A DNA stretch of 63,973 nt, filler included, from Folioceros fuciformis (lineage: Eukaryota): the NCBI GenBank assembly GCA_049999805.1. It is 8 parts of 8 records of this genome, joined end to end, with 100 filler letters (N's around TTAATTAATTAA, not from the genome) between each part and the next. Parts side by side here need not be neighbours in the genome. Positions count along the whole stretch, not along the records: positions 47,960 to 56,305 come from JBNGIO010002854.1; 7 more parts are not named here. One strand, written 5' to 3'. Numbering within the stretch: position 1 is the first letter of the stretch; each line of letters opens with the position of its first letter. Shown piece by piece: positions 39,001 to 63,973 of the stretch. The position numbers and the translations under genes are program-made. The notes below the pieces were generated by a model. It was given only the letters and a program-made list of their open reading frames with translations, did no database searches and was not told where the DNA came from.

Positions 39001-41843
39001 AAGCTTTGGATGAAGAACGTGCATTGCTGAAAGTTGCTGAGCGTGACCTGGTACATTCATTTCCCTGTCGATTTCCGGTGCAAACTAATGAAAAGAATCT
39101 CAACTGCTTCTTAGCGTTAGTATGCAGTAGGTGCCATACCACGGTCGTCCGCTATGGCCAAGAAGGCAAAAGATATTGTAGTGGCGAAAGCCTGTAGCTA
39201 GGCAAAGAATGCACTGTGCTCAATAGTCTTTTACATAACATCAAACAGGAGGTATGCAGGCTCAAAGAAGCAGCAGCAAGGAAAGAGATCAAGCATCTGC
39301 TTAATCGGACAGACGGATTCAGAATAGAACAGCAAAAGCAGCTTGAGCATGTGAAAGTGTGAGTACCGGTGCAGCTTAGAGTAGTGAAGGACATAACGTT
39401 GAATCTTGCTTACCACCTTTGACAATGTGATCAAGGGACCTGAGGTAACGAAATGATGGATCCAACATTTCACGATGTTGATTTGGTGAGATCACGCTGA
39501 AGTCCGTCTTGTGCTGTGTTCAGATCTTGTCAAGAGCAAGCACGGGAGCAATTGTCCCGTGAGCTGGCAGCTGCTGAGTTGAAGTCAAAAACTGCTGCAG
39601 ACAAGGCAATTAACTCCCTGAGAGATCATCTGCAAGCGAAGCTTTACAATGTGGAGAACGAGCTGCGTCAGGCTTTGCAAGGTTAGATTGCCATTTGACC
39701 TGGTGACAAGGTGGCGGATAGGAAGATAGTTGGAAGCGGGCCCTCTTGCCTTCCCTGGGAACGGGCAAGATGCAGAAGAAAGGAGGACGCTTATCTAATG
39801 AGTTCCAGTCATGGGCGAATTGTTGGCCAGATAAGGCTTCCATCAGTCAGCAAATGAGTAGTATTCAGGAGAGCGCGTCCAAGGAGGCTCTAGAGTTGAA
39901 GCAGGCTCTCAAGACTATCCTGACGAAGGTTGAGACTAGCCTGAGTCAATGTAATCTTTACACTTTTTAAAAGATCAACCTGTTTGTATCCACTGTACCA
40001 TTGCTTGCTTTTCAACAATGGGTGTGAACCTAACTAAACTATGCTGGCAGGAACGTCGCGCTGAGGCTTTGGTGGGAGAGCTTACAGGGGTTGTCCAGTC
40101 ACAGGTTTGCTCACCATGAAAGCCAGCTTATTGTGAACACCGTATTTGAGGACAGGGTAAGTAGGAGCTCAATAGGCATAACAATATTTTATCTGATTTT
40201 GGTCATGAAACAGAAACTGAAGCTGCAATCGGTTCATCAAGAGCTCAAAGAGCTGCCTATTGCTCAAGAGGTGGTGAACGGTTTTCTCTAACCTTGTGGG
40301 TACAAACTTTTAGATCAGTATAGATCTAATGAATAACATGTCTTCAGGAGCTTAGAGAATTGCGGAATGAAGTGAGTGCACTACGGTTGAAAGCCAGCAA
40401 GTCTGAGGATCTGGCAAGGGAGCTGGAAGGTCTCAAGTGTAAAGTAGCCGAAGCTAGTCTGTTAGCTCAAACAGAAACAGATAATGTGGTGAAGGAACAA
40501 AGGCTGCAACTTGAATCCTTGAAAGAGGAGAAAAACAGATTAGCGAGTGAGGCCGCTTCATGCCTTGAGAAGTTTCAGGTGGCAGAGGATGCTATTCGGG
40601 TAAGTGTAATGTGTCGCATTCAGGATTTCGACAGCCTTATGACATCGCTTCTGCTGGAGATTCTTATGGCATGGTCTACAGATAAAAAGCAAGATGCTAG
40701 ACAGTCAGAATGAGACAATCAAAGAGTTGAAGTTAGAGTTGAAGGAAGCACGCAGAGAAATAAAAACCGTTGCGGACACAGTTGATGCAAAATGGCATGA
40801 GAGGATGCGGGATGACCTTGAACAGGTACTACGGCACCTTTTCTTGGGCAACTCCTTGGGTATCACAGCTGTCCAACAGCTTGAACCCAGATATTTGCAA
40901 TGCAGGGGATTGTCCTTCGGAAGGATCTTGCTGTCCAAGAACGAACCATTTATGAGTTGGAGAGGCAGCTGAAGCTGGAGAAATCTACGGTGAAAACTTT
41001 GGAACACGCAAACTCCTCAGTGCAGAGGAAACTAGCTGAGAAAGATAGTATGCTGAGGTAAGAACTGTTCAATGCTCGCAAAAGCACCACCAGTTTCACT
41101 GCTCAATTTCGTCGGTGGTCTCGTGTCATCATCTCCAACGTTTTTGTATTAGTACGGACATAACCACGGTAGTCATCCAGGTACGTCGAGGAAGAAATTG
41201 CCCGAGTAAAGAGCATGTTCGAAAGCAGAGAGAAAGCTCTTGCCGCAGAACGAGACTCTTTGTTGGAACAGTTGAAGCAGGCAGCGAAGGTTCTAAGACC
41301 ATCCCATCCTGGATGAGACAAACTAGGAGGCGTGGAAGTTAATGATGTGTTGTGCACTGCTAAATGCAGGAAAAAGATGATGCCGTTGCCAAGGTGGTAG
41401 CTGAAACACAGCTCCAACAGAAAGAGCTGTTTGATTTGAATCGGACCTTGGAGGTACTGAGATCCGTGGTTAAGAAAGTGTTTGATGACAGCGCACCAAG
41501 AAGGCATCATATCACATGAGCCCATGTGCAACTGTGCATGCAGGCCCGAGAGCAGCAGATAGCATCAGTGGTAACAGCCAAGGATAAAGAGATTAGTGAG
41601 TTCTCGCGAAAGCTGATGCAGATGGAGAAGGAGCTGCATCAGCATCTTCAGGCTAAGCAGAAGTCTAAATTGCTTTCTAGTCACAAGGTGCCTGTGCTCC
41701 CTCCCACCGCCATACCACGGGTCGTTTGAATCTGAACCCGCACCTTCAGGCTCGTCGAAGATGATCCGAAATCTGTACTCGTCCCGGTGTTGCAGGTTAA
41801 TCAGCTGTGTAAAGTCCTAGAGGAATTGCGAGAAGTAACCTAA
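36005..41843 (+). CDS. Leucine-rich repeat and coiled-coil domain protein (LRRCC1/VFL1-like basal body protein), many exons
   Basis: N-terminal SDS22-like LRRs (LSLHGNQLERIEGL, LNLSSNNISKMEGL, LHGPRYSIQHLDLRDN) and an LRR cap (NPVC...YQRSVIAALPHLQSLDG). Then a P/Q-rich linker and many short coiled-coil exons, ending KDSMLRYVEEEIARVKSMF...VLEELREVT*. Confidence 0.8.
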
Positions 41844-42384
41844 CGGAAGGTAATTTAGAATGCTCCGAGCAATACACGAAATTTACATAAATAGCCTTGT
41901 GCTGGCCTTCTGTCTTTGGTGCAGCGTCGTTTAGCAGACATTTGTTACTTATCTACAGATTCTAGCTCTACTGACATCGTTCTCTGGCTGAATTTGAGAG
42001 CAGCCAAAGAAGCTGGATCAATCCACTGAAGTCTTTCTCCTTGCGGACGATTTAGAAATGTCTGACCCAATGGCCAGCTATTAGAGCAGGCAGTGGTGGA
42101 CGAATGTGCGGGACTTCGCAAATCTCACGCCCTCTGCTGCCCACGGATTAACAAAGCAGCAGAGGCAGGATATGCAGGGAGAGGCCCCGTCTCACCTCAT
42201 CCAACTGATCACAAGAAACAAAACTGAGAACCGAGTTGTCGTGTTGGCGGCTGTGGGTATCTGCAGAGATTGCTGGGTGTTGGCTCCCATATGTGCCTTG
42301 GGCTTGGTGTCGGAGATGATCCACTAAGATTGTACGCTTCAAACCTCTGACTGGGAGCTGACTGGTTTCCTGTGCGAACGCAAT

Positions 42385-43898
42385 TCAGTTCCCGCCATTT
42401 GGTGGGCCTTGCAGTGGGAAGTCCCAGAGCACGAATTCCCCTGTGCCTTCTCCATCGAAGCTATCTACATGTGTTGCAGGTTCCATACGCCCCATACCTC
42501 CCATGTCCCAGTTGTTGAAGGTCAGGCAATTAAAGAGCGCGGTGCCGGGAGGATACACTGAAGACGGGTTCAGGCTCACTCCGCCTGCAACATGAGGCTC
42601 ACTCACCTCGACCCCGAGCGCGTAGCTGGCAAAAGGCAATTCAACAGGAGCATTCTTCTCCATGTCATCGCCAAGCGAATGACCGGGCCACTGCTGAACC
42701 ATCTGCTGGCGCTGTAGCTGTAGGGAAGCATCAGAAGCGGCATCTTGGCGACGGATGAAGGCGCTGGAACGGGACAAGTTGGGCCGGTTCTCGTTCGCTG
42801 TCTCGATTCTGGGCGCCTTGGCTCTGTTGATTCCGAAGTCCTCCTGGTCGAGGAAATGGTCGTCCCCACCTGTGCTGGACGCAGATAAAGGAGATGGGAG
42901 CCCGCTGTCGTCGTAGTGCCTTGGTGGGCTCTTGTTCTTGAGACTTGCCCGGCCTGTCTCAGGTGACGGGTTGTTCCCGATACCGGACACTGCCGAGGTC
43001 GACGAGCTCAGAGGAGAGGCTGGCTCCGGGGACAGAAGTCCCTGCTGCGATTCCGTGGGCGACGCTGGCGGTGGCTGAGGCCCGTGCTGCGATTCCGTGG
43101 GCGAGGCCGGCGGTGGATGGGGCTTGGAGGAGACGCTGCACACCACCCAGGTTCCTTCTCCGTCGTCGGAACTCTGCACAACCAGCTAGGAAATGAGAAA
43201 CGGACTGTGTGAGAGGGACGGGTTCCAGCAGCTGTGATCGTATGTGAAAGGCAGAAGCTTACAATGCCAGCTCCCGCGGGACGGAACTCGTGCATGATCC
43301 AGTCCGTTTTCCCGTCGTTTTGGGGGACCTTGTTGCTTTGTTTGGCCTTGTAAAACACCAAGGTTCTGCGCTCCCCAATCTGGACGTTGTGCTTGTTCAT
43401 CACGTTGGTCGGCTTTCCCGTTGCCTTCCAAAATCCCCCTTTGGTCGATCGGTCCTGGCGTCCGGACGTCGGGTACTTCTTGCCGGAGTGGTGGAAGAAG
43501 TAGTACTCCGTCTTTTCGCCCGGGAATGCCGTCTGGCAGAGTCCTGCGTCAGCCATGGACAGACGAAGGAACGTAAGGCGTGAGCTTTGTTACTAGTGTG
43601 ATGTAGGACATGAAAGAGCAGAGCAGAGCAGATGCAGATGAGGTAAGCATGAGTGCTCACTAGGGATTTCCCCAGGCTCAACTTTGTTGAAATTAACCTC
43701 GGGGATGCAGCGTTTGTCGACGCCCTCACGCCCAGCGGCCCTGGAGGTGACGAAGACCCTCAGATACTCCATCAACTCGCGCTCGGTGGGGGCAAACCTG
43801 AGCCCCTTAATCTTGCACGCATTGAGGAGGGCAAGTAGCTCTCCCAACGGCGGCTCGTAGTCCTCCATGATGGCGTTCACGTCCATCGGAGCTGCCAT
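42385..43898 (-). CDS. NAC-domain transcription factor, 3 exons
   Basis: GLRFAPTERELM, IPEVNFNKVEP, EYYFF...GGFWKATGK, IGERRTLVFY, KTDWIMHEF and WVVC motifs with the typical two-intron layout. S/P-rich C-terminus. Confidence 0.9.
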
Positions 43899-46864
43899 CT
43901 GCCTTGGCTGATAAGCTGCGCATGACATGACATACAATACTGTCAGGGGATGGTGAGTGAGACAAGTTACCGGTGTGAAAAAGCCTTAGAAAGGCTTAGT
44001 AGCACAGGAGCTCCTGCATGGAACTTGCAAGGAAAGGAAGCCTAAGGGCCCAATTGGACAAGTTAGGCTAGGATTGTCACAGTCTGTCAAGGCATGCAAC
44101 ATGTTTCCTGCAGCTGGAGCTGGAGCTGAAGCTGGCCAGTTTGTTGCTTGGTGCAAGGAAAGCGGATGGACTGGCAGAAGCGTTGCCTAGGGCCAGGAGA
44201 CAGCCCCAGATCTCATGTCATGAACGACAAGCTTCTACCTGACCTTGCTCAAAGGACTTTGACAGCAGATGGGGCAGAGAGGGTTGCAGGCCAGGCCGCG
44301 GATTCCCTCCAGAAAGGGGATCCCGGCCGCCGTGCTTACCTTGGCTTGCAGTAACTGGAGAAGAAAGTACGAACGAGAGATTTGTGGAGGTGCAAACTTG
44401 GGGCAGGGACGTCGGGGCGGGAAGTGACGTATTAAAGAGCAGGCAGGCCTGGGGAGGAGATGTAGACTCCGAGGAGAGGAGAGCTTGGCCCTGGCAGAGG
44501 CTGCGCTCTTCCATCGGCTGAGCGTGGAGAGACAACGTGCCATAACGCACTCTGGACTGTGAGTGCGACACAGCCACCCGCTATCGACTAAGATCGCGCT
44601 TTGCTCGAAAGCAAAGAGGTGAGGCTGGTTGGAGCCTTGTTGCGGACCGGGGAATTCCAACTTATCGCCCACAGGGCCGCAGCAACGGAAGAGGAACTCC
44701 ACTCCAGATTGGAAACCCACTCGACAGGATAGACAGCAAAGCAAAACAGTGAGCTTGCCAAGACAGAAAGCAAAAGCGAGAGACACTAGCACCCTTCGCG
44801 AAACGCCTCCATACCGTTCTGAGGCGCCACGGAAATGACGAGCGCCTCCCGCATTTCCTCCAAGTTCATCTGGACCGGGCCCGGGTTGCAAGGTGCGAAG
44901 GAGGATTCGGATCTGGATTGCAGACGGCGAGGGAGAGGGAAAGAGGGACTGGAGGCAGAGGCAGGCGCAGAGAACAGATGGCAGATGGCAGAGAGCAGAG
45001 ACACAGAATTTTACGAGCGGAACCACACCACGCAATCAAATCCAGTGGAGCGGATTCCAATTGCACAGGCAGGGGTACCGGAGGCCACCATTCCACCACC
45101 TGTCTCCCAACCAAGCATGAGCAGTCAGGCGGGCAGCAGACCGTCTAGACACCGTCCTCCCTCTTTCCCTGCCTCCCTCCCTCACAAAGCAAAGCAAAGC
45201 AGCACGAGTCTCCTCCGGGAGCTTCACAAAGCAGCAATCTCCAAGGCAACCCCGCACCGTAATGTGCGCAGGTGGCGCCTCCCCCTCCTCTCCAGGACTG
45301 CAGCGAATTCGCGGTACTAATTCCAAGTTCTTATCTAGCACGCAGTCTCTACGGCAGGCAGGCAGAGAAGCAGGCAGGCAGGCAGGCAGAAGCGGGTTCA
45401 AGAAGCTGCAAGCAGAAGAAATGCGAGGCGAGGCGGGACCGAGGATGAGGACGAAGACGAGAGGACGAGAGGACGCTAAGACAACACAAGAGAAGGAGGG
45501 GAGCACAAAACCTCGGGTCTTTAAGAACCAAGGCTGTGCTGCAATCCCAAACGAGCTCCGTGAGCGGAAGAGGCTGGAGCAGGAAAGGTGTCTGGTCTGG
45601 CGAAGTAGCGCCCGCGAAGCAGCCAGGAAGCCGCCCTCCTTGCTTTCGTCGGTCACTAGAACGGAAAAGAGGGGGTGCTGGACTGGGCCAAATGGCCCGC
45701 TAGAAAGATGAAAGACGCTGGTGCCGGTTGTGGAGGCGTTGCTGGCGATGGTGATGGTGGTGCTGGATCTGGCTACCCCACCAAGGAGGGGGGTGTTTAT
45801 ACCCCAGGGGCAACCGGCTGGCCCGGTGACGTGCCATCATAGCCGGTCGTAGCGTGCTCGCAAAGCACCGCCCATTTCCCTTCCCGCCTCACTCGTCGCT
45901 CCCTTCCCGAGACCTGTGCGAGCAGCCTTGACAGCAAAGCAAGGCGCGGGTCCCGCCTTCCCGCCAGCCACTTTAGCATCCTCCATGAATGCACCTTGCG
46001 CCGCGGCCAAGCGGCGCAACCCCCCAGCTAAACTGGCCCACAAGCCCCTCCGGCCAACTGCGCCGCTAAATCAAGGGCCGCCAGTTCCACATACGCCGCC
46101 AGTTGCCACAGCCCCGGTCGGAACCGCTCACCGCGTCACCGCGCAGTGCCTGCGCCAACCGCGTCTATGTCGCATGCTGTCCGTCCGTCCGTCCGTCCGT
46201 CCCCATTGGCCGGGTCGGGCCGGGCCGGGCAGTACCGGGCCTGGGCTGCCCGGGCCCATGCCATGGCCTCAGGGCGCATGCCTTTGACAGTCGGGTCACG
46301 TCGCGTCGCGTACCACGACCCACAGCGCCACCGGCTGTAGCCCGTCCACGCCGTGTACGCGGAGGCGCACACGCGTGTGCCGTACAGCCGGGAGTTTTGT
46401 CCAATGTCCCGACTCCCACTCTTTTCCTCCTCTTCGTCCCGGCATGCAGCATATGCATGCTCATACGATATCCACACACAGCCCCGCCCACCGGGGGCGA
46501 CGGGGAATCGCCCGGAGCACGCTGACTCCGGACGACTTCCGGTCTTGTCAGTCTCCCGTGGTCTCCTCGGTCTTCCGGTCGCCCCTTTGCGTGCGAAACA
46601 TACATTTTCTATTCATATCACGCGATGCCGTTCGTGGCCACAACACCAGATTCTGTTTCGCCTTTGAGGCATACGATTCATATCCTCGTACTTCCCTCCC
46701 TATACAGGATCAGTTCCTCCGTACCGTAAATTCTTCACTAAAGATAACAACATGACATAGTAATCACCATCCTACAAAAACAATTTCCATCTCTCCCACC
46801 TTGGGTTTCTCAATCCAGGTGCAGGCTGACAGGGAACCCAAGTCTGCGTGTGGTGACGTGGCGC

Positions 46865-46963
46865 ACATACAAACACACACACACACATACATACATACAT
46901 ACATACATACATACATACATACATACATACATACATACATACATACATACATACATACATACA
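46865..46963. repeat. (CA)n + (TACA)n microsatellite
   Basis: Directly visible. Confidence 0.95.
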
Positions 46964-47959
46964 GTAAGGCGTCCTATCCCCCACTGAGGGGCCACATCCA
47001 CATCCACCTCGAGTGGCGAATTCCGGCGTGCCGTGTCCCGTCCAGAAGCCGTTAGTGGCGCAAACATCGGAGAAATTGTGACTGGCGAAACTCGCTTGAC
47101 AGCCGAACGACGGCGACAGACCACGTGTGGTTGGGTTGCTGCGCTTGGCCTTCTTCTGTCCGATTCGAGCAACACGGAATAGACGGCACATGAACCCTAA
47201 ACTGTAGACGGCAGCAAACCGGGTTGGAGTTAACCGGAGGGAGGGAGGGAGGGAGGAAAGAAGGGTTGGGAGACTTAAGCTCCCCCGGGCAGTGTGACCT
47301 GGACCAGGCTCTTAGTACTGTGATATGTTTTCTAATATTGAAAAAGAGGGAAAATTTTAGTACTGCGCAACAACATCAATAGCCAGGACAACAGCAGCAC
47401 GAACAGCAGAGACCCCGAGCAAAGGCCACAAGGAATACTGAGTCCCATGTTGGAATATATTCTCAAAACTACCAAAATTGGGGCCCACGCAATGGAACGT
47501 GAACCTGGTGGCATCGCGGAAGCCGCTCGCACGTGGGCAGGATGGACAGGATGGACAGGATGGACAGGAGGGAGTAAATTAAAAAAACTATAACAGATCC
47601 TGGCATCGACTCCCGCCCTTCTTGGAGCGATACAGATAGCCGCATTCCGTCTCGAAGCAACCCGGCAGCCGGAGCCGCCCGGAAAGAGAAGAAAAAGGCG
47701 GCGGGCATCGCCGGAAAGAAACGGGCACTCCCGGGCCACCGCGGGAAAGAGAAGAGGAGGCCGGAAAGAAGGGGCGGAACGAAGACAGGCGGAGCCTGAG
47801 GAACCGGAACGGAGGAGGGGAGGAGACCATTGGTAGTCAGTGGCCACGCATGGCGGGGTNNNNNNNNNNNNNNNNNNNNNNNNNNNNNNNNNNNNNNNNN
47901 NNNTTAATTAATTAANNNNNNNNNNNNNNNNNNNNNNNNNNNNNNNNNNNNNNNNNNNN

Positions 47960-48361
47960 CCGACGCTCAGGAGGGGGAGAAGGTGCTGCCTCATAATCAT
48001 TATCTATAGCAGCATCAGCCATATCTGCAGGCTCTGCAGCAGCATCTGCAAGATCTTCAATAGCTGCAGGAGCTTCATGTAAAATCCCATGATCAAATTC
48101 AGGATGTGGCTCCTGTATACTATCAGCAGCTGATACTATCTCCTCAACAGGTTCAGCTGCAAGTGTAGCTGGTTCAGCTGTATCTTCCCCACCTACAGGA
48201 GCATCATCCTCATGGGGAGAATCTTCAAAGTGTGAGACATCTGGGGAGACCCCACCGTGCTGTGAAGCTCCCACTGCCCAAGGAACTTTTTCATTAAAGG
48301 TAACACTCCTAGAGTAAACTACCTTGTCCTTAGAGACATTGTAAAGTTTATAAGCCTTTAT
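47960..48361 (-). mobile_element. Copia pol fragment (post-integrase region), interrupted by the next element
   Basis: Minus-strand KAYKLYNVSKDKVVYSRSVTFNE followed by an acidic linker. Confidence 0.75.
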
Positions 48362-51300
48362 TGTTAGATAAGATATACATATATAGGTGATATATATATA
48401 TTGTATTAAACATGAACCTATAGATTAGGTCAAGTAGACTGTGGTCGTTTAGGTTAACGGAGGTGACCTTTAGCCAAGCGTTACCTAGAATGGTATTAAG
48501 ACTTTTTTGGTTGTTGACATTCGTTGTTCAATTTATCTACCAAGAGATTAAGCAAGTATTCTCGCTTCCACTCGACAATTTACATGGTATCAGAGCATGG
48601 TGCTCTGTTTCCTATCTACAGACTCTAAGGATGCCGAGGCAAGGTGGCTGTAGGGGGGGTCAACGTGGTGCACTCCCAAGAATTAGAAGGAGGGAGTTCC
48701 ACCCATGAAGACAGACAGCAAGCGTCCCTATTGACACTTTGCTGGATCTTTACGAGCACGACTACCCTGCACTCTGGCTGAGACGTTTTGTGGCACAGCG
48801 TAGCAACCCCCCTGGATCGGCTCACGTCCTCAACTGTAATCTTGAGACTGATCGCCTGTATAAGGAGCGCTGCTGCAAGAGAGGACAAAATCCAGAATTG
48901 TTTTATAGCAATAGGACTGGAGTACCCTCACCTTGCCTTAGACCCCCTGTGCCACATCAACACTCAAACAGCATCAACAGAAACTCTCCACCATTGAGTA
49001 GTAGTAATAGTGCGCAACACACATCTGTTACCTTGGCTCGTGTGGAGAAGGTGCTCACGTTGGCTTTAGCCAACCAGGAATCTGTGAGGAACAGGGCAGA
49101 CAGCCTGAATTGCAACGTAGAATTGGCCATATCAGAATGCAAACATGAGATCAAGCAGGATTTGAATTTCGTGACTTATTCTCTGCAAATGATGAACCTT
49201 AGATTGCAAAAACTTGAAGCTGGCTTGTAGTTCTGCTGCTGTTGGGTCACAGGCTGAAGAATCTTGAGAATTTCCGCTGCTGTCGAGCGGAGCGTCCTGG
49301 CGCAGGAGCAACTCCGACCAGGATCTGAAGAGGCACGATGTGAAACGCGCCTCCTCACCGACAGTGCTTGCTTGTTTCTTGATTTGTCCACCTGTAGGTG
49401 TCTGTTCATCTGTCAAAGATGTGGCAGTTAGCTTGAACCCTAATTTTTCATTTTAGTTTCTTGAAACGACATGTTTTTAGGGTTATGCCTATAAGCACAA
49501 CAATTTACTAGTGTCTGAAAAGAAGTTGAGGAGTTTAACATCAAGAGGGCATAATTTCTTACTAATGTGGTATTGGAGTGAGCTATTGCATCATGTAGGA
49601 TCAGGCGTGAGCACACGAGTACCAGAGAGACACGAAAGAGTGACGACTTGAGTGTGTGAAGAAAAACAATAAAGGAGTATTTTGTAACCGTTTTAACCTA
49701 ACGTATATAAACCTATTAATTGATGATTATACTAAACCTTATACCGCTTGGTAATAACGAGTTAGTGTCTGCTCTTTAAATACCATTCCAATAAGCCCCC
49801 TCAGACCTAACTCGCAACCTTATCTGGTTAGAATCGGCCTGAGGCGCAGACGCTATCTCCACACACAGCTCCAAATGACTGAAAAACTCAAAACTGTCCT
49901 CCCATGGCAGATCCAGGCGCGCTGATCGCGGCTCACCTGTTAGAGGTGGCCATCGCGATTCGGCTCACCGCTGGACACTGGTGCCTGCTAAGCCAGATGC
50001 ACAACACCAAAGGAACGGCGGGAGGCGCGAATCCAAAAAACTGCTGTGAGGAGAGAGGATACGCTGTAGAAGAGACTTGGAGTCGAAGTCACTGGGGAAG
50101 GCAGGGGACACTCAAACCTTCTCGCACTGGTTCCAAGTTGGCGAGAGAAGTTGAGCTGGCTGTCTTCAAGGCGGCGTGCAAGCTGCCTCTTCCGGACGAC
50201 GAAAAGCAAGGCCTGCAGCAAAGGTACTAAACAGAAAAGGGGGTGCATAGAGGCTGTTGGTCCTGTTTAGGTTACCTTGATGCTTCATCCAGGACTGACA
50301 GCTTGTATTGTGTGCTGGTCAGGCTCAAGATATTGCCCTGTGCGTAACACACAGGAACTGTGCTTTGAGAGGGTGCCCAAAAACGCTGCTTCGAATACAT
50401 AGCTCCAGTTGCAGCTCACCCGCGCTCCTTCTCGACTGAGCATGTGTGTTGCTGCTGTTTGAGATAAGTAGCTGAACTGGTTAGTCCTAGGGAGCTTCTG
50501 TGTTGCTCATGTGTTGCCTTAGGGAGACCTTTGGTAAGCAGGTCTGCCACGTTATCTAATGTATGCACATATTGCAACTGTATGACCCCTGTCTCCACTG
50601 CTTGGCGAATAAAGTGAAACTGTATCTCGATATGCTTAGATCGAGCATGCAGGATAGGATTCGCTGTTAAGGCAATCGCTGACTGGTTGTCACATCTTAG
50701 AAATGTTGCTGAGGGTTGCTGCCAATGTATGCCCTCAAGGAATTGTCTAACCCAGATAATCTCTCGTGCAGCTAGGGATAATGCACCATACTCGGCCTCG
50801 GTAGACGAAAGACTTACTGTGGTCAGTTTCTTCGACTGCCAGCTGATAGCAGAGCCACACAGTAACAAACAATATGCAGCAATGGACTTACGCGAGTCAA
50901 TATCACCTGCCCAATCGGCATCTGAATAAGAGGTAAGGGTAGCATCACCTGCTGCTGTGTACTGCATGAAATAATCCTGGGTTCCTTTCAAGTATCGTAG
51001 AATCCGTTTGACTGCCGTCCAATGCTTCTTACCAGGATTTGCAAGGAAACGTGATACAACTCCTACAGCCTGAGAAATGTCAGGACGTGTCCAACTAGCT
51101 AAGTACAACAAACTCCCTACAGCTTCTCTATAAGGAACTTGAGCCATTTCTGTTGTGTCTGCTGGTGTTGTAGGACAGTCTTCTATGGACAGCTTGTCAC
51201 CAGAGGCTATGGGAGTTGTGACAGGATGCAAATCTGTGAGTTGTGACAGGACCTGTGTCACAATCCACCAGGCTCACTTCATTAGACAACTGCTGTCAAA

Positions 51301-54300
51301 AAGATTTAGGGCTAAAATTGAACTGAATGCCTAAAGCAAACTTCAAAGGGCCCACATCTGTCATGTCCCATTCCTGGGAAAGTTCATGCTTCAATTCTGC
51401 CAAAATCTGCTCATCACTTGCAAAGAGGAAGTTGTTGTCGACGTAGAGAGCGATGATGCATAACTGGGATGCTCGTTTCAACATGTAAACACTACAATCT
51501 GCTGTAAGTGATGTGAATCCCAGCTGCCACAATTTGGTTGTAGCCCTGGTATTCCAGATTCTAGCATATTGTTTTAGTCCGTAAATAGATTTTAATAGCT
51601 TGCATACCTTTGCAGGGTCACGGACATAGCCCTCGGGCTGATGCATAAATATAACCTCATCGAGAGGATCGTTCAAGAAAGCGGTCTTGACGTCCATTTG
51701 GTGGACGAGGAGTCGATGCTGCACATCATAACACAACAAAATTCTCATGGAATGTGGCTTCACAACGGGACTAAATGTCTCGTTGTAATCCAAACCATGC
51801 ACTTGAGTATAACCCCTTGCAACCAAGCGGGCTTTGAATCGGGCAACAGAACCATCCGGATGCAACTTTAATTTAAATACCCATTTGGATGTAATGGCTC
51901 GTCTGTCCGGAGGTAAAGTTACTAGCTCCCAGGTTTTGTTTTTAATGAGGCTGTTATACTCAGAATCAATTGCCTTCTGCCATTCTGCTTTATCGGGGCC
52001 AGATAAAGCTTCCTTATACATAAGTGGTGTATCAGGTGGATCAAGGATGGTGGAGGCTGATGTATGGGCAAGAGCTGCTAGATCGGACCGAGGTAATGGG
52101 TCAGCTGGTAAGATTGGTAAGACTGGTATTGGCACTAAGGTGTCACCAGGTTCATAGGGTTTTTCTAACCACTCAGATCTAGGACGGTGAATTCATGCTG
52201 ATCTATGTGGCAAAACAAGGTCCTGTTCTACAGCTGGAGGGTCTGGATCCACATCTAATTCAGCTGGATCTAAAACAGGAAGATCTAACTCTACAACTGG
52301 AGGAGCATCATCTAACTGTACAGGGTCAGGTACAATTGGTGCATTCATAGGAGGTGGCTGGACAGGAAATTGAAGTTGTGGTGGCACACCAGAAAAATCG
52401 GAAGGAAAATCAGAAATGTCAGTGTCAATCTCATCATCTGTAACTGGTAGCTGTGGCGTATGCCCATATACAGAGGGTTTTGATAAAGGCGTGTGGCTTG
52501 TGACATTATGTTGATGAGAGGAGATGATAAAGCTCTTGTTGAAACTCACACTTCGAGCCAAGGTAAGCTGTCTTGTGTGTGGATTGTATAACTTGTAGCC
52601 CTTCGATTGCTCAGAATAACCAACAAATACATGCTTAGTAGCCCTATTGTCCATCTTACCACGCTTGTCTGCAGGAATGTAGGCGTATGCAGCTGCACCG
52701 AATATTCGGAGATGCCCTATTCTGGGTTTGTGACCACACCAACGCTCAAATGGTGTGTAACTGAAAAATGGCTTGACAGGAAGTCTGTTCTGTACATAAT
52801 TGACAGCTGCTACAGCCTCAGCCCAGTACCCTCGGGTAAGCCCAGCTGATGAGAGAGTAGCTCGACAACGTTCTTGCAACGTTCGATTGTATCTCTCTGC
52901 ATATGAATTTTGCGCAAGATGATAGGGAACAGTTAGCTGGTGGAGTATACCCTTCTGTCGACAGTAGGATTGAAGGTCGTTGCTAAGGTATTCCTGTGCA
53001 TTGTCACTTCTCAGTTTCTTCACTATACAGCCAATCTGGTTTTCTGCCATTGGCACGTACTCCAGGAATTTCTCATAAGTTTGATGGCGATGATGCAGAA
53101 AATACAAACAACAATAATGACTCCATTCGTCGAGGAACAATAAGAAATATGTGGCACCGCCAAAGGAGGCTGTCGACATCGGGCCACAGATGTCAGAATG
53201 CACAACATCCAACAGCCCAGTAGCTTTGGTGGGCGCTGGATCATTATATGGCTTCTGTGCCATTTTACCCACTTGGCAGTCTTCGCAAAACAAGTGATCC
53301 TGAACTTTAAAGGCAAGTGGGTCTTTGTATAGTTCTGGCTTGCTGATAATTTGACGTATGTATCCGATGCTAGGATGAGGTAGTCTGCAATGCCAGAGGA
53401 AATGTTTATCCACATCTGGTTTTGCATCAATCACTAGTCCACGAGGATATGCTGTTGTTGTGTCAAATTGGTACAGATCATTGTAGATGATTCCCTCTCC
53501 TAAGATAACAAAATGATTCTGTGCTGATGTTACCAGGCAGCCAGTTGGTGAAAAACAAACATGTAGATCATGGTCTGTTACAAGCTTCCTCACTGATAAT
53601 AGGTTCTTCGTCATGCTAGGTACATGGAGAACTCTCGACAGTCGAATCTCCGCTCCATCATTGAGTGGGAAAGACACACCGCCATAGCCAGCAATAGAAA
53701 GACTACTATCATCGCCAAGCAAGACAAATTGACTGGTTGGTGCTGGCTTGTAAGTGACGAATTTGTCTTTTGATTGACAGATGTGATGTGTGGCTCCTGA
53801 ATCCAGGAACCACATATTAGGGTCAGCTCGTGTGAGAGATAAACATACCGCAAGGATGGTGGGTGGCTTGTTGGTAGGTTGTGTGGCGCTGGTCTGTCCT
53901 CGAGTCACAACATGTGTCTCAGCACCAGGTGGTGCTTCACATCGGGGCTCACCAGCCCGCTTCTTGCGACATTCGCTTTCGAAATGTCCAGGAATACGGC
54001 ACTAGTGACAAGTGCCCTTCTTCTTCAGACCAGTGTTAAAAAATGATGGGACTGTGTAGGGTCTCCCCCGTCCACGGCCACGCCCTCTACCCCGTCCACG
54101 TTGAGTATAGAGGACTTGTGAGGTATGTTGTTGACCCCGTCCAGTTGCAATTCTACTGGACTCTTCTTCGAGAAGTGCACCCACCACTTGTGATAACGTC
54201 ACATTTGCTCCTGCTTGCTTGGTGAAGGAAGTCTGGGTGGTAACAAAAGCTCTGTAGCTTTGAGGCAGTGAAGTAAGTAGGATAACCACTGCTTGCTTCT

Positions 54301-56305
54301 CCGTCAAATCCTCACCACAGGAGGAGAGCTTGGCACGTAAGGTACAGAACCTATGCAAATGATGCTCAGCACTGTCAGTGTCTTTCATACGAAGACCATA
54401 GAGTAGTCTGGTTGCATTTATAAGGGACATTCCGTCTTTGGCTGCGAACATGTCCTTAAACATAGTCCAGACTACAGCAGAGGTTGTCTGCCCTTGAGTG
54501 TGTTGAATCATGTTTCTGTCCAGAGCAGAAAGGATGAGGCAGCGTGCTCTCTTGTCCTGCTTTGCCCAAGCTGCAATTTCTGCATCTGTGCCTTTCGGTA
54601 AGGCTAATGATGGATCTGTGGATTTTCCGGTCACAATATCCATGAGATCGTGCTCCTCAAAGATGGACTCCATCCTCAGTTCCCAGATCGGGTAATCAGT
54701 CCCGTTGAATTTGTCCTTGTCCTTTATGTCAACTTTGAATGTGTTATTAATCACTGTGTTCGTTGAACTAGTTCCAGCCCCAGACATGTTGAGCCTGTGT
54801 GGCTTAGGGTTCTTAAGTGCTAAGCTAAGGTGTAATGGATCTTCAGGGATCCTATGTGGTGGTGACCACATCAACTATGCAAACTAGGAAACAGACTTCT
54901 AGAGAATGGTGAGCTCCTCACCAAATAGCTTAGCAAGTGAAGTAAGTACGTGCTCAATGGGTTCAGGCAAATGCTTGCTGACCATGCTAGAAACGTGTGA
55001 TGCTTTGCTAACTGGGGTGCTGGGTGTAGCATCGTTGTTAGTAATGACATCTTCATACAAGCGGCAGAAGTAGTGAACTTTTCTAACCAGAAAATCATTT
55101 TGTTCTTTCAGTTTTTGGATGTCTTTCCTATGCTTTAACTTGTCAGCAGATGCATTATGCTGCAACACGGTGAGTGTGGTTCTAAGATTGCATAAATCAC
55201 GTAATAATGCTGGGGTTTGACAGGTGCTAATACTAAGTGCTCTGCATGTAGTGTGACAAGAACAAGATGAAATAGGAGCGGTCTCCTGATTACAACAAAA
55301 CGATTGTGTGTGAGGACATGCTATAGAACTAGAACAAGATGTCCTTGTGAACCGTCGCTTATTGTTCCTAGTCATGGCGCAGTGTTCAGAGATGATGACG
55401 CTGGATATGTTTCCAATTCGAAACTGATCTCCAGTGTTCTCGCAGCATTGATAAAGTCGTCTCCACTGTTCTGAGGTTGATCAGCGAAACAACTTCTTTA
55501 GTGCGCTCCATATTCTGAACAGATAGGAGTGCGCTGGTTCCGTCCCGCGCTGTGCTGGAAGCCACATTCTTGGCGCTGCTGAAACGCCGAATGGCTGGCG
55601 GCGATCTGGCTCTGATACCATAATGTGGTATTGGAGTGAGCTATTGCATCATGTAGGATCAGATCGTAGCAAGGAGGCGTGAGCACACGAGCACCAGAGA
55701 GACACGAAAGAGTGACGACTTGAGTGTGTGAAGAAAAACAATAAAGGAGTATTTTGTAACCATTTTAACCTAACGTATATAAACCTATTAATTGATGATT
55801 ATACTTAACCTTATACCGCTTGGTAATAACGAGTTAGTGTCTGCTCTTTAAATACCATTCCAATACTTACTATCCCCTGCCTCTTGTTAAACCCTCCAAC
55901 CTCCTCTCCTACACTACACTAATCAGATCTTCAGATTATTGCATGAAATAGGACAATGCAGGGCAGGATCAGGTCAGGATTCTTCTCTGCAAGGTAGTCA
56001 CATATGTCCTTTAGTGATTTTGACATTGCAACTATTTTTCCTGGTTGTATTCCCCTTCATCTGTGATGGCTGCCCCAAGCCCTGCAAGTCCTACATTAAC
56101 TTTTACTTCTGAGTTAAAAGAGAAGGATCGTTTCAAGGGAAGTGGTTACCTTATATGGAGAGTGCGCATGAAAGCCATCATGTCGGCTCGTGGCTTCTGG
56201 CCAGTCCTAGATGGCACGTTCAAGAAACCTGATCCGACCACAGACCCTGACAACCACGCCAAGTGGCTACATCACAATGGAATTGCCATGGCTATCCTCA
56301 TCAAT
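48362..56305 (+). mobile_element. 5' part of a Copia element (LTR 48362-48584, PBS, extra ORF, gag start at ~56066), split by a nested insertion
   Basis: TG...CA LTR followed by TGGTATCAGAGC at 48585. Resumes after 55865 with the gag N-terminus (KDRFKGSGYLIWRVRMKAIMSARGFW). Confidence 0.75.
49563..55865 (-). mobile_element. Full-length but inactivated Ty1/Copia LTR retrotransposon with TA...TA termini
   Basis: Near-identical LTRs (55621-55865, 49563-49793), TSD CTTAC on both sides, PBS at 55609-55620 and PPT at ~49794-49803. Contains gag (from 54787), protease WFLDSGATHH, integrase, RT and RNase H. Premature stops, a frameshift near 51280, and YVDD changed to YVDN. Confidence 0.97.
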
Positions 56306-56405: not shown

Positions 56406-56610
56406 AACCCCTGCCTCTAGCCCTAGCTAGGGCACAGCCTCCATGACCGTTCAGGCCAGCCAGGCAATCAACCAGCCTGACCCCTGACACTGACATACCC
56501 CACATATTCCCATTCCTATGTTCATACCATTATTTTATTATTTTGTTATTTTATTATTTTAATAATATTAAACTAATCACCAGACCTAGACTCTAACTTT
56601 CGCAGGTCTA
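56406..56610 (+). repeat. Dispersed ~200-bp repeat, second copy at ~62967-63200
   Basis: Shared aacccctgcctctagc...gacccctgacactgacataccc...attaaactaatcaccagacctagactc. Confidence 0.8.
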
Positions 56611-56899
56611 GAACCAGACCTGTACCCACTCTAATAACCAAACTAACTATTTCCTAGTCAATTAACCTAATTAGCACAAAGAAAAATAGAAAAAATGACC
56701 AGAAAATAAAGAAAAATTAGGGAAAAGAAGTAGAAAAAGAAAACCAAACCATACCACTATTAACCCTTTTTCAACCAAAACAAACTACTACCCCAAACTT
56801 TGGAGGTTCACACATTGGATTTGTACGAGGCTCACCAACTGCCACGGTGCAAACCTGGAACCCTTTGCACCAGGGGGCGCTGCACCTAGCCTACAATAC

Positions 56900-57570
56900 C
56901 AAGTTGCAGGCTGCCATTACAGCTCATCAATAAGCCATTGCTAATGGCACTGTTGCTGCCACCGTACAGCCTCCTACAATGGTGAGTCCCCTCACCCCAG
57001 CGAAGAGGACAACAGCAATGCAGGGGATCGATGAGTTCATCCAGACTCCCAAGCATGCCAACCCCGTGGAGGAGTTTTTGAAGATTCTGGAAAAGGCCTT
57101 TCCCCTCAAAACTTCGGAGAAAATCGTTGAGTTGGCTACTTTGGCGAGGAAGAAAGGGAAGACAGTCCAGATGTGCTTCTGTAGGTTGCAAAAGCTACGT
57201 GAGGGTACTGGCATGTTGACGGATCAGGAGGCAGCGGAGAAGCTCTTAGTTGCCCTAGAGGGTGATTCTCTTTTTCCTTCCAGCTTGTGTCCTCCTTGGT
57301 GGACAAATATGGTGATAACTACACCTTGGAGCAAGTGCATGAAGAGGCGGAGAAGGAGATCACCTACTCGGTGTTCTCCTCCAAGCATGCCAAGTCCTTC
57401 CATCACTACCAGTCCATGTTCACCAATAAGGGGTCAACCACGCATGGGGGAGCTTCCTCAAGGGCATGGCCAGCTAAGCCAGCCAAGGCAAGGGCAACAG
57501 CTACTATAGCAGCAGCAGCACCTACGGCAGCCTTATGCAATTACTGTGGCAGGCCAGAGCACTTGTCCAC
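56900..57570 (+). mobile_element. Retrotransposon gag-like remnant with partial zinc knuckle
   Basis: Frameshifted ORFs (VEEFLKILEKAFP...TLEQVHEEAEK...CNYCGRPEH). Confidence 0.55.
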
Positions 57571-58234
57571 TGTTAGTATAGGCGTGTCTAACCCTAACAT
57601 AGGTTAGACATACAGGNNNNNNNNNNNNNNNNNNNNNNNNNNNNNNNNNNNNNNNNNNNNTTAATTAATTAANNNNNNNNNNNNNNNNNNNNNNNNNNNN
57701 NNNNNNNNNNNNNNNNCCCTAAGAAAAGCAAAAGTTGCAAAGATATAATTTAATAATTGAGTACTAAAAATAATAAAATATAAAGTATCCCAAATCTAAA
57801 ATAAAAGTATACCTCCAAATATGTGATTTTAGAAGCCTTCTTTGTTTGTGTGACGATGTCCTAGTGCATTTAACGTTATCAGGCAGAACGTACTTAGATG
57901 GAGAACACATGTTAGATCAAAAGCCTTCAAAAATAAATACAAGAGTTACTAAAACCTAGTACAATTTGAGTGTGGTAACATGCTCCTTTCCAAGCCACAT
58001 GCAAGCGTAAAAAAAACTGCCTAGATAGATAGATGGTTATAGGATTTCCGAGGCTTAAGATCATCATAAAATAAGAACAAATAATGAAAAAATGATACAT
58101 AAAATAATAAATACTGGACCAAATTAAAAAAAAATACAAAAAAAAAACTTCACATACTCTATATACATAAATACGTACGTACTTACAGCACTATACAGCG
58201 CCCGCTTCATTCGCTCCACCCCCGCTCACCCGCT

Positions 58235-60349: not shown

Positions 60350-60930
60350 TGGTCACAGTTTCCAAGTCACTACTTTTTTCTTCTTCCTCGGCACTTCATC
60401 AAACCCTCTCAACCGTCGCAAACTGTTTGAACCTTCATTTGCAGGCAGCTCTTGTAATGGCATTTGTGACCAAGGTCCCTCTCTTTGCTGAGCTATAAGT
60501 ATCCGAATTTGATGTAAGGTTTGTTCCATGATAGCAGCAATATCAAAACACACATCCTTGTGATGGAAAGCAACCTCACAAATCTCCCTACATCTTGTTT
60601 CAATTGTGTCCATCCTTTGCTGCTGATTTTGCTAGAAATGTGAGGTCTTTGCACTTGTTGCCACCAAACTGCTGTCATGGATGACAAGTTTCGGGTTTTC
60701 TTGGTCCTGTAGCCAATAGGACATTGCTAAAGTAGACATTGCTGCCCCATCAGGGCAATATGCAGCAGGAATGGGAGTACACTCCTTCACACACTCCTTC
60801 ACAGTTGCAGTTCCATCTTTGCAAACGATAAGTAATTGCTGAACCTTAATAATATGCTTGCATGTGAACCCTTTCAGGCCCATAGAGCATGTGCACGTTG
60901 CCCATGGAGAATCTACATGATCTATATTGG
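60350..60930 (-). mobile_element. MULE/SWIM zinc-finger transposase 3' remnant
   Basis: Minus-strand TCSMGLKGFTCKHIIKV (SWIM-like CxxxxxxxxCxH). Confidence 0.55.
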
Positions 60931-61071
60931 GTTATCTTTGTTTACATACACTAACTCATTATACACTCACTNNNNNNNNNNNNNNNNNNNNNNNNNNNNN
61001 NNNNNNNNNNNNNNNTTAATTAATTAANNNNNNNNNNNNNNNNNNNNNNNNNNNNNNNNNNNNNNNNNNNN

Positions 61072-63313: not shown

Positions 63314-63973
63314 TATTGGTAGAATTATATATATCCAGCATTAATAAATAGTAAATCATATTTAGATGGGAACCGGTAGATTCCTAGCGACATACACAAG
63401 GGTCGGCGACCTTAAACTAATCGCCGTACCTTCACACTCACAGGACACAATCGTTCAGTCTTTTTTAAGGCCACACGGCCAAAGTAATGATTATCATTCT
63501 ACATCTTCTTGCTTGCTCTCGCTTCCACCTCGATCCTAATTTATATGGTATCAGAGCGGTAATGGAGGATGTGTCGCCACCGCGCAAGAGCAACATCTGC
63601 AAGAGTTTGAAGTGCATTAGAAATTTGAGCCTCGAAGAATTTCATGCAGCAATCTCTGCACTCCGAGTATCTCTTACCTGATTTGGCGCAATGGCCGACG
63701 CCTTTCTTGCAAGCGCCGTCAATCACTACTACGACTGACTGCGCGCGATGCCGAGAGCGCGAGGTAGAGCCACGCATTTGCCTGTAGACCCCTTTCTTGG
63801 CTGTCGCAGTGTGCCAGAGGACGTGCACGACCAGAATCTTCACCGGTTCTTTGCAACACATTGCAATTTCAACCCCCTGTACACGCACATAGATCACAGG
63901 CGTCAGCATAGGCGTCAGGATAGGCGTCGCACAACTCAATTCCGTCAGCGACACCTGAAACCAGATCCTCTTG
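63314..63973 (+). mobile_element. 5' end of another Copia element (LTR to 63545, PBS at 63546, extra ORF from 63748)
   Basis: TGGTATCAGAGC at 63546. The LTR 3' end shares ctcgcttccac with the 48362 LTR. LTR start uncertain. Confidence 0.7.

What the first reader, a model, noticed from the sequence alone, without database searches (positions are those of the whole stretch)
48631..49230. Conserved extra ORF ('ORF0') between PBS and gag in Copia elements
Seen: after the PBS at 48585 a frame starts MPRQGG, has one in-frame TGA at 48706 (possibly a decayed CGA), and continues VPIDTLL...LRRFVAQRSN into a coiled-coil-like C-terminus. A different element on another contig has, after its PBS at 63546, an ORF from 63748 reading MPRARG...LPVDPFL...LHRFFATHCN. 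Position, MPR start and motifs match although the nucleotides have diverged. Known: Copia elements normally encode only gag-pol, and upstream ORFs are better known from Gypsy Ogre/Tat elements. Inference: a lineage-specific accessory protein, for example for anti-silencing or particle assembly.
Basis: partly seen in the sequence, partly recalled or inferred. Interest (0 to 1): 0.72.

Follow-up and report, generated by a model that had tools for sequence, protein, structure and literature searches.

The report
Unrelated leader ORFs in nested Copia elements

Summary
The conservation claim fails. The frame at 48631-49230 (element B) and the one from 63748 (element C) give no BLASTP alignment, a local score reached by 141 of 1000 shuffles, and rank 306 of 1552 among all open segments of the window.

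The context was missed. B's leader is split at 49562/49563 by a young nested Copia (D, 49563-55865, minus strand, TSD CTTAC). B's gag starts only at 56066. D has its own 158-aa ORF (55375-54899) ahead of gag, and it is unrelated to B's.

The open frames in the B and D leaders (173 and 193 codons) are longer than shuffles give (9 and 2 of 2000). C's is not. B's ORF has one relative in public data: 73% identity over codons 1-70 with a sense codon at B's TGA, then a 1-nt frame difference.

No family, fold, RNA or clear selection signal supports function. I read these as family-specific 5' sense extra ORFs, a catalogued class that is rare in Copia, with B's copy broken. A plain non-coding leader is nearly as likely.

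The parts
47963..48358 (-). Fragment of a third Copia (E), from the C-terminal part of its integrase. B is inserted into it.
   Evidence: BLASTP to D's integrase residues 436-471, pairwise E 1e-05. No Pfam hit.
48362..48584 (+). 5' LTR of element B (TG...CA). No second LTR lies in the contig.
   Evidence: Read from the sequence. The LTR end plus PBS is 88% like C's over 41 nt.
48585..48596 (+). PBS of B (TGGTATCAGAGC).
   Evidence: Exact match.
48631..49230 (+). B leader ORF ('ORF0'): 199 codons plus stop, broken by an in-frame TGA at 48706-48708. The stretch 48709-49227 is 173 codons open.
   Evidence: Open length reached by 9 of 2000 shuffles. One relative, P0001.
48709..48798 (+). Best-conserved core between B and P0001 (codons 27-56, 28 of 30 identical).
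   Evidence: Alignments. The 28 of 30 count is by my reading of them.
49033..49224 (+). Predicted long C-terminal helix of the B ORF product.
   Evidence: AlphaFold2 single-sequence helix 109-172. Ad hoc heptad score ranks 9 of 825.
49231..49562 (+). Rest of B's leader up to the D insertion. The last 5 nt (49558-49562, CTTAC) are one copy of D's target site duplication.
49563..55865 (-). Nested Copia element D, 6303 nt. LTRs are 49563-49793 and 55621-55865. Flanked by CTTAC at 49558-49562 and 55866-55870.
   Evidence: Repeats and alignment, flanks read, Pfam gag/PR/IN/RT.
55609..55620 (-). PBS of D.
54899..55375 (-). D leader ORF, 158 aa from ATG (193 codons stop to stop). It ends 24 nt before the gag frame opens and is in the same frame as gag.
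   Evidence: Open length reached by 2 of 2000 shuffles. No credible relative.
50416..54874 (-). D gag-pol (gag, PR-IN, RT, RH). It carries two in-frame stops and one frameshift.
   Evidence: Pfam, frames.
55871..56065 (+). B's leader resumes after D.
56066..56305 (+). Start of B's gag (80 codons, up to the contig end).
   Evidence: Pfam Retrotran_gag_2 E 1.5e-4 and DUF4219 E 5.3e-4, both below the gathering score because the protein is cut off.
63546..63557 (+). PBS of element C.
63748..63972 (+). C's open frame (75 codons from ATG, runs off the window). Not longer than chance.

Best explanation
The locus is a nest of three Ty1/copia elements in a land-plant genome. Element B was inserted into element E, and element D was then inserted into B's leader.

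B and D both have long PBS-to-gag leaders (1161 and 818 nt). Each leader holds one long sense ORF. The two ORFs are unrelated to each other, and C's short frame is unrelated to both. The likeness reported between B and C is chance.

I read the B and D frames as family-specific 5' sense extra ORFs, the 'eORF-5'F' / '5'aORF' class of plant LTR retrotransposons. They arose or were acquired separately in each family. B's copy is dead: it has an in-frame TGA, and the element itself is split by D.

Inferred, not shown: the product would be translated from the full-length element RNA ahead of gag. It would be a small protein with an arginine-rich N-terminus, a low-complexity middle and an amphipathic helical C-terminus. 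That is the make-up of a nucleic-acid-binding, self-associating accessory factor acting on the element's own RNA. Translating the ORF would also hold back scanning ribosomes from reaching gag.
For: Architecture:
- LTR, PBS, TSD and Pfam domains support the nested structure.

Open length:
- B's frame is 173 codons; the other five frames reach 35-106. Only 9 of 2000 dinucleotide shuffles reach 173 in a sense frame.
- D's frame is 193 codons; the other frames reach 39-78. Only 2 of 2000 shuffles reach 193.

B's relative:
- One hit, P0001, came from 75 candidates in the 5.8-billion-protein search. It is 51 of 70 identical over codons 1-70 and reads a sense codon at B's TGA.
- After codon 70, P0001 follows B's +1 frame (26 of 50 identical). 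Minimal changes inferred from B's codons fall 18 on ORF0 third positions against 10 on second positions (one-sided binomial p = 0.09). Of 16 uniquely inferred changes, 9 are synonymous and 7 non-synonymous in the ORF0 frame.

Protein-like features:
- An ad hoc heptad score ranks B's ORF 9th and D's 22nd of 825 open segments. The top six are exons of host coiled-coil genes.
- AlphaFold2 gives a 64-residue helix in B and four low-confidence helices in D.
- A 6-nt, in-frame insertion within D's ORF is seen in other copies.

Literature:
- Extra ORFs of LTR retrotransposons are heterogeneous and mostly lack known domains (PMC6317226, passages).
- Tekay 5'aORF proteins have an NLS, helices and disorder, and show no amino-acid similarity between species (PMC11728184, passages).
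Against: - Neither ORF has a Pfam family, a PDB sequence relative or a usable Atlas hit. Atlas recognition values were 1588 and 1727, below the 2300 that most known families reach.
- D's ORF has no credible relative among 1.84 billion representatives. The two hits are tandem-repeat proteins matched in 8 and 3 stretches. The word-index search also found none (0 of 23 candidates).
- B's ORF has only one relative. A search among shorter proteins found none (0 of 7 candidates).
- B's codon usage looks non-coding: -0.105 bits per codon under a model trained on the window's Copia genes. Coding windows average +0.075 (minimum -0.066) and off-frames average -0.132. Another frame of the same DNA scores higher (-0.030). 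D's ORF scores -0.018, which is equivocal.
- The position-3 excess is not significant.
- Of the four best-supported differences to B's ORF in DNA contigs of the same organism label, three are non-synonymous and one is synonymous (codon effects by my reading).
- Other copies carry a 1-nt deletion at 49226 and a 40-to-5-nt replacement at 49040-49081.
- Both known copies of B's ORF are broken relative to a 199-codon frame.
- AUGs precede the ORFs: 1 in B and 3 in D after the PBS.
- ORFs of 150 aa or more are common in this window (44, some overlapping on both strands).
- The heptad score was designed after seeing the sequence, and the antisense of B's helix region also ranks 18th.
Confidence: 0.5

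Rival explanations
1. Plain untranslated leaders. The long frames have no coding function. They are leftovers or by-products of leader sequence kept for cis-acting roles such as reverse-transcription priming next to the PBS, packaging, dimerisation or translational control by upstream AUGs. The B-P0001 likeness is then only shared descent of two copies of one family.
For: - Codon usage is non-coding-like in B.
- There is no family, fold or homologue beyond one close copy.
- Copy differences run 3 non-synonymous to 1 synonymous, and other copies carry frameshifting indels.
- A 1-nt frame difference separates the only two copies.
- The conserved core lies within 215 nt of the PBS, where cis elements are expected. 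That expectation comes from established knowledge of Ty1 and retroviral leaders, not from any call here.
- Gag is preceded by 14 AUGs in both B and D, which is typical of long regulatory leaders.
Against: - Open lengths of 173 and 193 codons in the sense frame are reached by only 9 and 2 of 2000 shuffles, in two independent families.
- Heptad-like periodicity is in the top 3% of open segments for both.
- The first 300 nt of B's leader fold no better than shuffles (z = +0.71).
- No Rfam family matches.
- The inferred changes lean towards ORF0 third positions (18 against 10).
Confidence: 0.36
2. One ancestral ORF0 gene is shared by different Copia lineages (B and C, perhaps D), with the nucleotides diverged and the protein motifs kept.
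For: - Both frames start MPR and show V/LP-I/V-D and L-R/H-RF-V/F-A motifs.
- The B motifs fall in the core that B and P0001 conserve best.
- B and C share their LTR end and PBS.
Against: - No BLASTP alignment at E<=100.
- 141 of 1000 shuffles reach the local score.
- C ranks 306 of 1552 open segments against B's core.
- The spacing between the motifs differs (11 against 13 residues), and so does the distance from the PBS (46 against 202 nt).
- C's frame is not longer than chance and is shorter than its antisense frame.
- B against D: score reached by 55 of 1000 shuffles. C against D: 352 of 1000.
Confidence: 0.03
3. Captured host sequence. The leader ORFs are exon fragments of plant genes transduced into the elements, and are open because they were recently coding.
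For: Gene capture by plant LTR retrotransposons is documented (PMC7264820, whole text part 1). The frames are open without clear constraint.
Against: - No homologue of D's ORF was found among 1.84 billion representatives.
- Only a same-family copy was found for B.
- tblastn finds no similarity to anything else in the window.
- No Pfam domain.
Confidence: 0.06
4. N-terminal extension of Gag. The leader ORF is joined to gag by splicing or recoding, so that it is part of the capsid protein.
For: In D the ORF and gag are in the same frame, only 13 codons apart. A GTGAGG donor-like site sits at the end of the ORF.
Against: - Three stops lie between them. The only GT..AG interval I could read there is under 50 nt and does not give an open junction (by eye).
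- In B the ORF and gag are in different frames and 527 nt apart (the 527-nt gap and the frame offset are my own arithmetic from the coordinates).
- No RNA data are available to test splicing.
Confidence: 0.03

Closest known systems
eORF-5'F: extra ORFs 5' of gag in sense orientation, in plant LTR retrotransposons (Neumann et al. 2019, PMC6317226)
   Same: They lie between the 5' LTR/PBS and gag, in the same orientation. They have no conserved domain. They are heterogeneous between families, and their function is questioned by the authors themselves (passages).
   Different: That survey counted only ORFs of 250 codons or more. These are 199 (broken) and 158 (193 stop to stop). In its table no Ty1/copia lineage has a clear eORF-5'F share. 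Tekay has 33%, Ogre 21% and TatII 23% (supplementary file 3). The Bianca and Ikeros rows have shifted columns in the text copy and cannot be assigned.
ORF0 of rice Retrosat2 and the 5'aORFs of Tekay chromoviruses (PMC3485330, abstract only; PMC11728184, passages)
   Same: An ORF upstream of gag-pol, called ORF0. Its position is kept while sequences diverge beyond recognition between species. The predicted proteins have basic or NLS-like stretches, a few helices and disorder. Function is unknown.
   Different: Those are Ty3/gypsy elements with far larger ORFs (about 400 aa in sunflower), found in 500 of 523 family members. Here the elements are Ty1/copia, the ORFs are half that size, and only two copies of one family could be compared. 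I did not compare sequences with those proteins because none was at hand.
SIRE env-like eORF-3'F, the one well-known extra ORF of Ty1/copia
   Same: Same superfamily. Also highly heterogeneous in sequence (74% of SIRE elements, 19 unrelated groups).
   Different: It lies between pol and the 3' LTR, not in the leader.
LINE-1 ORF1p (an analogy only, recalled and not tested)
   Same: A small protein encoded ahead of the enzymatic ORF, with a coiled coil and a basic nucleic-acid-binding character.
   Different: A different class of element. There is no RRM or CTD and no sequence or fold match here. Self-association was not shown.

Membership tests
Ty1/copia LTR retrotransposon (element D) | Two LTRs, a 5-bp target site duplication, a tRNA-Met-type PBS, gag of copia type, and pol in the order PR-IN-RT-RH | tested here: met
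   LTRs are 231 and 245 nt, with 3 mismatches and a 14-nt indel. CTTAC flanks both ends. PBS found. Pfam hits: Retrotran_gag_2 1e-30, Pol_BBD, rve, SH3_retrovirus, RVT_2 3e-62. The RH part had no Pfam hit. That the 12-mer matches the tRNA-Met 3' end is recalled, and agrees with PMC6317226.
Ty1/copia LTR retrotransposon (element B) | LTR-PBS-gag of copia type | tested here: inconclusive
   One LTR with TG..CA ends and an exact PBS. The gag start matches Retrotran_gag_2 (E 1.5e-4) and DUF4219 (E 5.3e-4), both below the gathering score because the contig ends after 80 codons. Pol and the 3' LTR are not in the contig.
eORF-5'F sensu Neumann et al. 2019 | ORF outside gag-pol, 5' of gag, forward orientation | tested here: met
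   B: 48631-49230, between the PBS at 48585 and gag at 56066 once D is removed. D: 55375-54899, between the PBS at 55620 and the gag frame from 54874.
eORF-5'F sensu Neumann et al. 2019 | At least 250 codons | tested here: not met
   199 codons with one stop (B). 158 codons from ATG, 193 stop to stop (D).
Conserved accessory gene of a retrotransposon family (as in Tekay 5'aORF) | Present and open in most copies of the family, with conservation like gag-pol | not testable with these tools
   No genome is held. Only one relative protein was found and its DNA could not be fetched. Contigs of DNA runs show copies with and without indels, but only the best-supported differences were listed (40 shown, 1716 not shown).
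Coiled-coil, self-associating protein | Heptad periodicity and predicted self-association | tested here: inconclusive
   The heptad score is in the top 3% of open segments, but it is ad hoc. A long helix is predicted. Self-association remains untested in effect (see Tried and rejected).

The most novel reading that the evidence does not exclude
Copia families of this plant keep a positionally conserved but sequence-unrelated gene in the leader. It encodes a small arginine-rich, coiled-coil protein. This would be a Copia counterpart of the Tekay/Retrosat2 ORF0 and, by analogy, of LINE-1 ORF1p. It would evolve so fast, for example in an arms race with host silencing, that only its architecture survives between families.
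Probability: 0.2. Interest if true: 0.6.

Novelty: new member of a known kind. Interest (0 to 1): 0.3.

Why it matters
If the leader ORFs are translated, they would extend the 5' extra-ORF class to Ty1/copia. That class is so far documented mainly in Ty3/gypsy (Tekay, Ogre), and Neumann et al. list no clear case in Copia at their 250-codon cut-off. It would also show that shorter ORFs are being missed by that cut-off.

As it stands, the useful results are negative and structural. The "conserved ORF0" is a chance motif match. The region is a three-deep nest of Copia elements whose leaders are long and ORF-bearing.

Tried and rejected
**Searches that found nothing**
- RNA evidence: no RNA holder is listed. 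2 of 6 listed runs hold part of the stretch (0.39 of words), both from one sample and study and both DNA. The one run guessed to be RNA laid nothing.
- Metagenome scans: 124 pattern matches but no tblastn relative for B's ORF. 0 matches for a degenerate pattern of the conserved PALWLRRFVA stretch.
- Atlas look-alikes: no usable hit.
- PDB by sequence: one hit at E 0.83 for B, none for D.
- Rfam on the contig: 0 matches.
- tRNA genes in the window, sought to test extended tRNA-leader pairing: 0.
- Earlier findings of this scan: nothing in 3 look-ups.

**Tests that gave no usable answer**
- Self-association of B's C-terminal 74 residues as two copies: verdict 'no answer' (score 0.11, mark 0.32, controls not run).
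- Fold searches were not run. Both models are of low confidence (mean pLDDT 55 and 51).
- RNA fold of B's first 300 leader bases: z = +0.71.
- Codon-usage model: weak, because the training set is small. My 'A gag' control row is unreliable because that stretch contains stops. Only B's gag start (+0.156) is a clean held-out control.

**Readings considered and dropped**
- Splicing that joins D's ORF to gag. No workable intron could be read.

**Literature**
- Searches for a described 5' ORF in Copia. None of the listed papers describes one.
- The element-level table of PMC6317226 (Additional file 1) was not among the supplement texts I read.
Full report
**1. What is at the coordinates**

The window is not one molecule. 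It is eight contigs joined by N spacers. The finding lies in the contig 47960-56305, and its comparison element lies in the last contig, 62963-63973. Genes elsewhere in the window are of land-plant type: a PPR with E/E+ motifs, NAM, XS and a GRIP golgin.

The 12-mer TGGTATCAGAGC occurs exactly four times:
- 14943 + (element A)
- 48585 + (element B)
- 63546 + (element C)
- 55620 - (element D)

- In B a frame starts MPRQGG at 48631. It has an in-frame TGA at 48706-48708 and ends at 49228-49230.
- In C a frame starts MPRARG at 63748 and runs off the window.

**2.

B's leader is cut at 49562/49563 by a complete Copia element on the minus strand, element D (49563-55865).
- Its LTRs are 231 and 245 nt. 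They differ by three mismatches and one 14-nt indel.
- The pentamer CTTAC flanks both ends (49558-49562 and 55866-55870).
- Pfam finds copia-type gag, the Pol beta-barrel, integrase, the SH3-like domain and RVT_2 in the Copia order.

B resumes at 55871, and its gag begins at 56066. The 80 codons before the contig end match Retrotran_gag_2 (E 1.5e-4) and DUF4219 (E 5.3e-4), both below the gathering score because the protein is cut off. So B's architecture is LTR (48362-48584), PBS, ORF (48631-49230), 527 more leader bases, then gag. The PBS-to-gag leader is 1161 nt.

To the left, B itself sits in an integrase fragment of a third Copia.

D has its own ORF in the same relative place. It runs from 55375 to 54899, is 158 aa from ATG and 193 codons stop to stop, and ends just before gag.

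**3. Is the B-C likeness more than chance? No.**

- BLASTP gives no alignment at E<=100.
- The best local alignment (score 34) is reached by 141 of 1000 shuffles. With only B's first 90 residues, 74 of 1000 reach it.
- When B's best-conserved core is scored against all 1552 open segments of 25 aa or more in the six frames of the window, C's frame ranks 306th.
- tblastn of C's frame finds nothing on B's strand.
- The ORF starts lie 46 and 202 nt after the PBS start.
- The two shared motifs are 11 and 13 residues apart.
- C's open frame (78 codons) is matched or beaten by 1011 of 2000 shuffles. The opposite strand is open for 138 codons.
- B against D (55 of 1000) and C against D (352 of 1000) are not significant either.
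- At the DNA level, B and C share only 41 nt around the LTR end and PBS.

**4. Are the ORFs themselves more than chance? For B and D, yes by length.**

- In dinucleotide-preserving shuffles of each PBS-to-gag leader, a sense open frame as long as the real one appears in 9 of 2000 (B, 173 codons) and 2 of 2000 (D, 193 codons).
- The other five frames of the same DNA reach only 35-106 codons (B) and 39-78 codons (D).
- A's leader (78 codons, 319 of 2000) and C's are unremarkable.
- Caveat: the window holds 44 ORFs of 150 aa or more, some overlapping on both strands. Length alone is therefore not proof.

**5. Relatives**

- B's frame, read with X at the stop, finds one protein among 75 candidates in the 5.8-billion-protein index. 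This is P0001, 134 aa, from a 1170-nt assembled contig.
- P0001 is 51 of 70 identical over codons 1-70. Codons 27-56 are 28 of 30 identical, by my count from the alignment. It reads a sense codon where B has TGA.
- From codon 71 on, P0001 follows B's +1 frame (26 of 50 identical). The two copies therefore differ by a 1-nt indel near 48840.
- Relative to a 199-codon frame, both known copies are broken, each in a different way.
- A search among shorter proteins found nothing (0 of 7 candidates).
- D's ORF has no credible relative. A full HMMER pass over 1.84 billion representatives gave two hits, both tandem-repeat proteins matched in 8 and 3 stretches. The word index gave 0 of 23.
- Two metagenome scans were empty.

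**6. Signs of selection are weak**

P0001's DNA could not be fetched. I therefore inferred minimal nucleotide changes from B's codons.
- In the shifted part, a change at an ORF0 third position or second position is visible as an amino-acid change in P0001's frame. The fractional counts are 18 (third) against 10 (second), one-sided binomial p = 0.09.
- Of 16 uniquely inferred changes, 9 are synonymous and 7 non-synonymous in the ORF0 frame. The direction fits purifying selection on ORF0, but the numbers do not establish it.

DNA contigs of runs with the same organism label cover the whole stretch.
- Of the four best-supported differences inside B's ORF, one is synonymous and three are not, by my reading of the codons.
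- Other copies carry a 1-nt deletion at 49226 and a 40-to-5-nt replacement at 49040-49081.
- D's ORF shows a 6-nt, in-frame insertion after 54997 in some contigs.
- Only 40 of 1756 differences and 12 of 62 indels were listed, so no census is possible.

A small codon-usage model places the ORFs as follows.
- B's ORF scores -0.105 bits per codon, among the off-frames. Coding windows average +0.075 with a minimum of -0.066.
- D's ORF scores -0.018, between the two classes.
- B's own gag start, used as a held-out control, scores +0.156.

**7. Protein-likeness**

- No Pfam family, no PDB sequence relative and no usable Atlas look-alike.
- AlphaFold2 without an alignment gives low overall confidence (mean pLDDT 55 and 51). 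It does give one 64-residue helix at B's C-terminus with block pLDDT up to 93, and four low-confidence helices in D.
- An ad hoc heptad score, written after seeing the sequence, ranks B's frame 9th (tied at 7-10) and D's 22nd of 825 open segments. The six best are exons of host coiled-coil genes. The antisense of B's helix region ranks 18th.
- Both products begin with an arginine- or lysine-rich stretch, followed by Cys/Ser/Pro/His-rich low complexity.

**8. Translation context**

- After the PBS, one AUG precedes B's ORF start and three precede D's.
- Gag is preceded by 14 AUGs in both elements.
- Whatever the ORFs do, gag cannot be reached by simple scanning from the full-length RNA.
- B's first 300 leader bases fold no better than shuffles (z = +0.71), and Rfam finds nothing.

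**9. Interpretation**

Shown:
- The nest of elements.
- The long leaders.
- Two unrelated long sense ORFs.
- One same-family relative for B.
- The absence of B-C similarity.

Inferred: each family carries its own 5' extra ORF. Its product, if made, is a small basic protein with a helical, possibly coiled-coil tail. I put this at about 0.5. A plain non-coding leader is at about 0.36, and the other readings share the rest.

**10. Comparison with what is known**

- Neumann et al. 2019 (PMC6317226; passages and supplementary file 3) catalogued extra ORFs of 250 codons or more in 582 of 5410 Copia and 3372 of 8453 Gypsy elements. They found them highly heterogeneous and questioned their function.
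- Their lineage table lists 5' forward ORFs for Tekay (33%), TatII (23%) and Ogre (21%). It shows no clear share for any Copia lineage. The Bianca and Ikeros rows are shifted in the text copy.
- Rice Retrosat2 has an 'ORF0' whose homologues diverge in sequence and predicted structure (PMC3485330, abstract).
- Sunflower Tekay 5'aORFs are kept in 500 of 523 elements, have an NLS, helices and disorder, and show no amino-acid similarity to those of grasses (PMC11728184, passages).
- The review by Vicient and Casacuberta (PMC7264820, first part of the text and passages) notes that upstream aORFs exist but deals mainly with 3' ones.
- Six literature searches listed no paper describing a 5' ORF in Copia.

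The ORFs here work like that class in position and orientation. They fail its 250-codon criterion, and the 'present in most copies' criterion could not be tested.

**11. Verdict**

The specific claim, a conserved ORF0 shared by different Copia elements, is not supported. What remains is a modest and unproven case of family-specific leader ORFs in Copia. It is a new member of a known kind. Interest is 0.3.

Noticed in passing
window 1-63973: The window is eight contigs joined by spacers of 44 N + 12 bases + 44 N. The pieces are 1-18494, 18595-31836, 31937-47859, 47960-56305, 56406-57616, 57717-60971, 61072-62862 and 62963-63973. The genes are of land-plant type: a PLS-class PPR with E/E+ motifs at 4767-7130, NAM at 43011-43556(-), an XS domain at 21131-22294 and a GRIP golgin at 25912-28068.
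   Followed up: partly
47963-56305: A three-deep nest of Copia elements. An integrase fragment (E, minus strand) is interrupted by B at 48362, and B is interrupted by D at 49563-55865.
   Followed up: yes
50416-54874 (-): D looks young (LTRs differ by 3 mismatches and one 14-nt indel) but is defective. It has an in-frame stop inside the CCHC zinc knuckle of gag (54002-54004), an in-frame stop between IN and RT (52193-52195), and a frameshift between RT and RH (about 51262-51298).
   Followed up: partly
54860-54925 (-): D's leader ORF and gag are in the same frame, separated by three stops within 13 codons. This could be chance (1 in 3) or the trace of a former continuous frame.
   Followed up: partly
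48706-49136 (+): There is no ATG in any frame for 431 nt inside B's ORF. About 7 would be expected at 1 per 64 nt, which is my own arithmetic. B's whole leader has 15 ATGs in 1208 nt. D's leader shows no such gap.
   Followed up: no
14744-17276 (+): Element A is a short (about 2.5 kb) Copia-like element. Its LTRs are 88% alike over 201 nt, its PBS is at 14943, and it has a gag-like frame. Its leader of about 450 nt has no unusual ORF: 78 codons, reached by 319 of 2000 shuffles.
   Followed up: partly
62967-63201 and 56406-56601: The start of C's contig is 80-97% like the start of another contig, which carries a 176-aa ORF (56979-57509) with no Pfam hit.
   Followed up: no
run X3 laid on 48361-55620: X3 shows a strong excess of C>T (474 places) and G>A (310 places) over all other changes. 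A bisulfite-treated DNA library would look like this. If so, it could be used to read the methylation of these elements.
   Followed up: no
58191-59215: A low-complexity repeat region has five overlapping ORFs of 112-323 aa on both strands. It is a reminder that ORF length alone is weak evidence in this genome.
   Followed up: no
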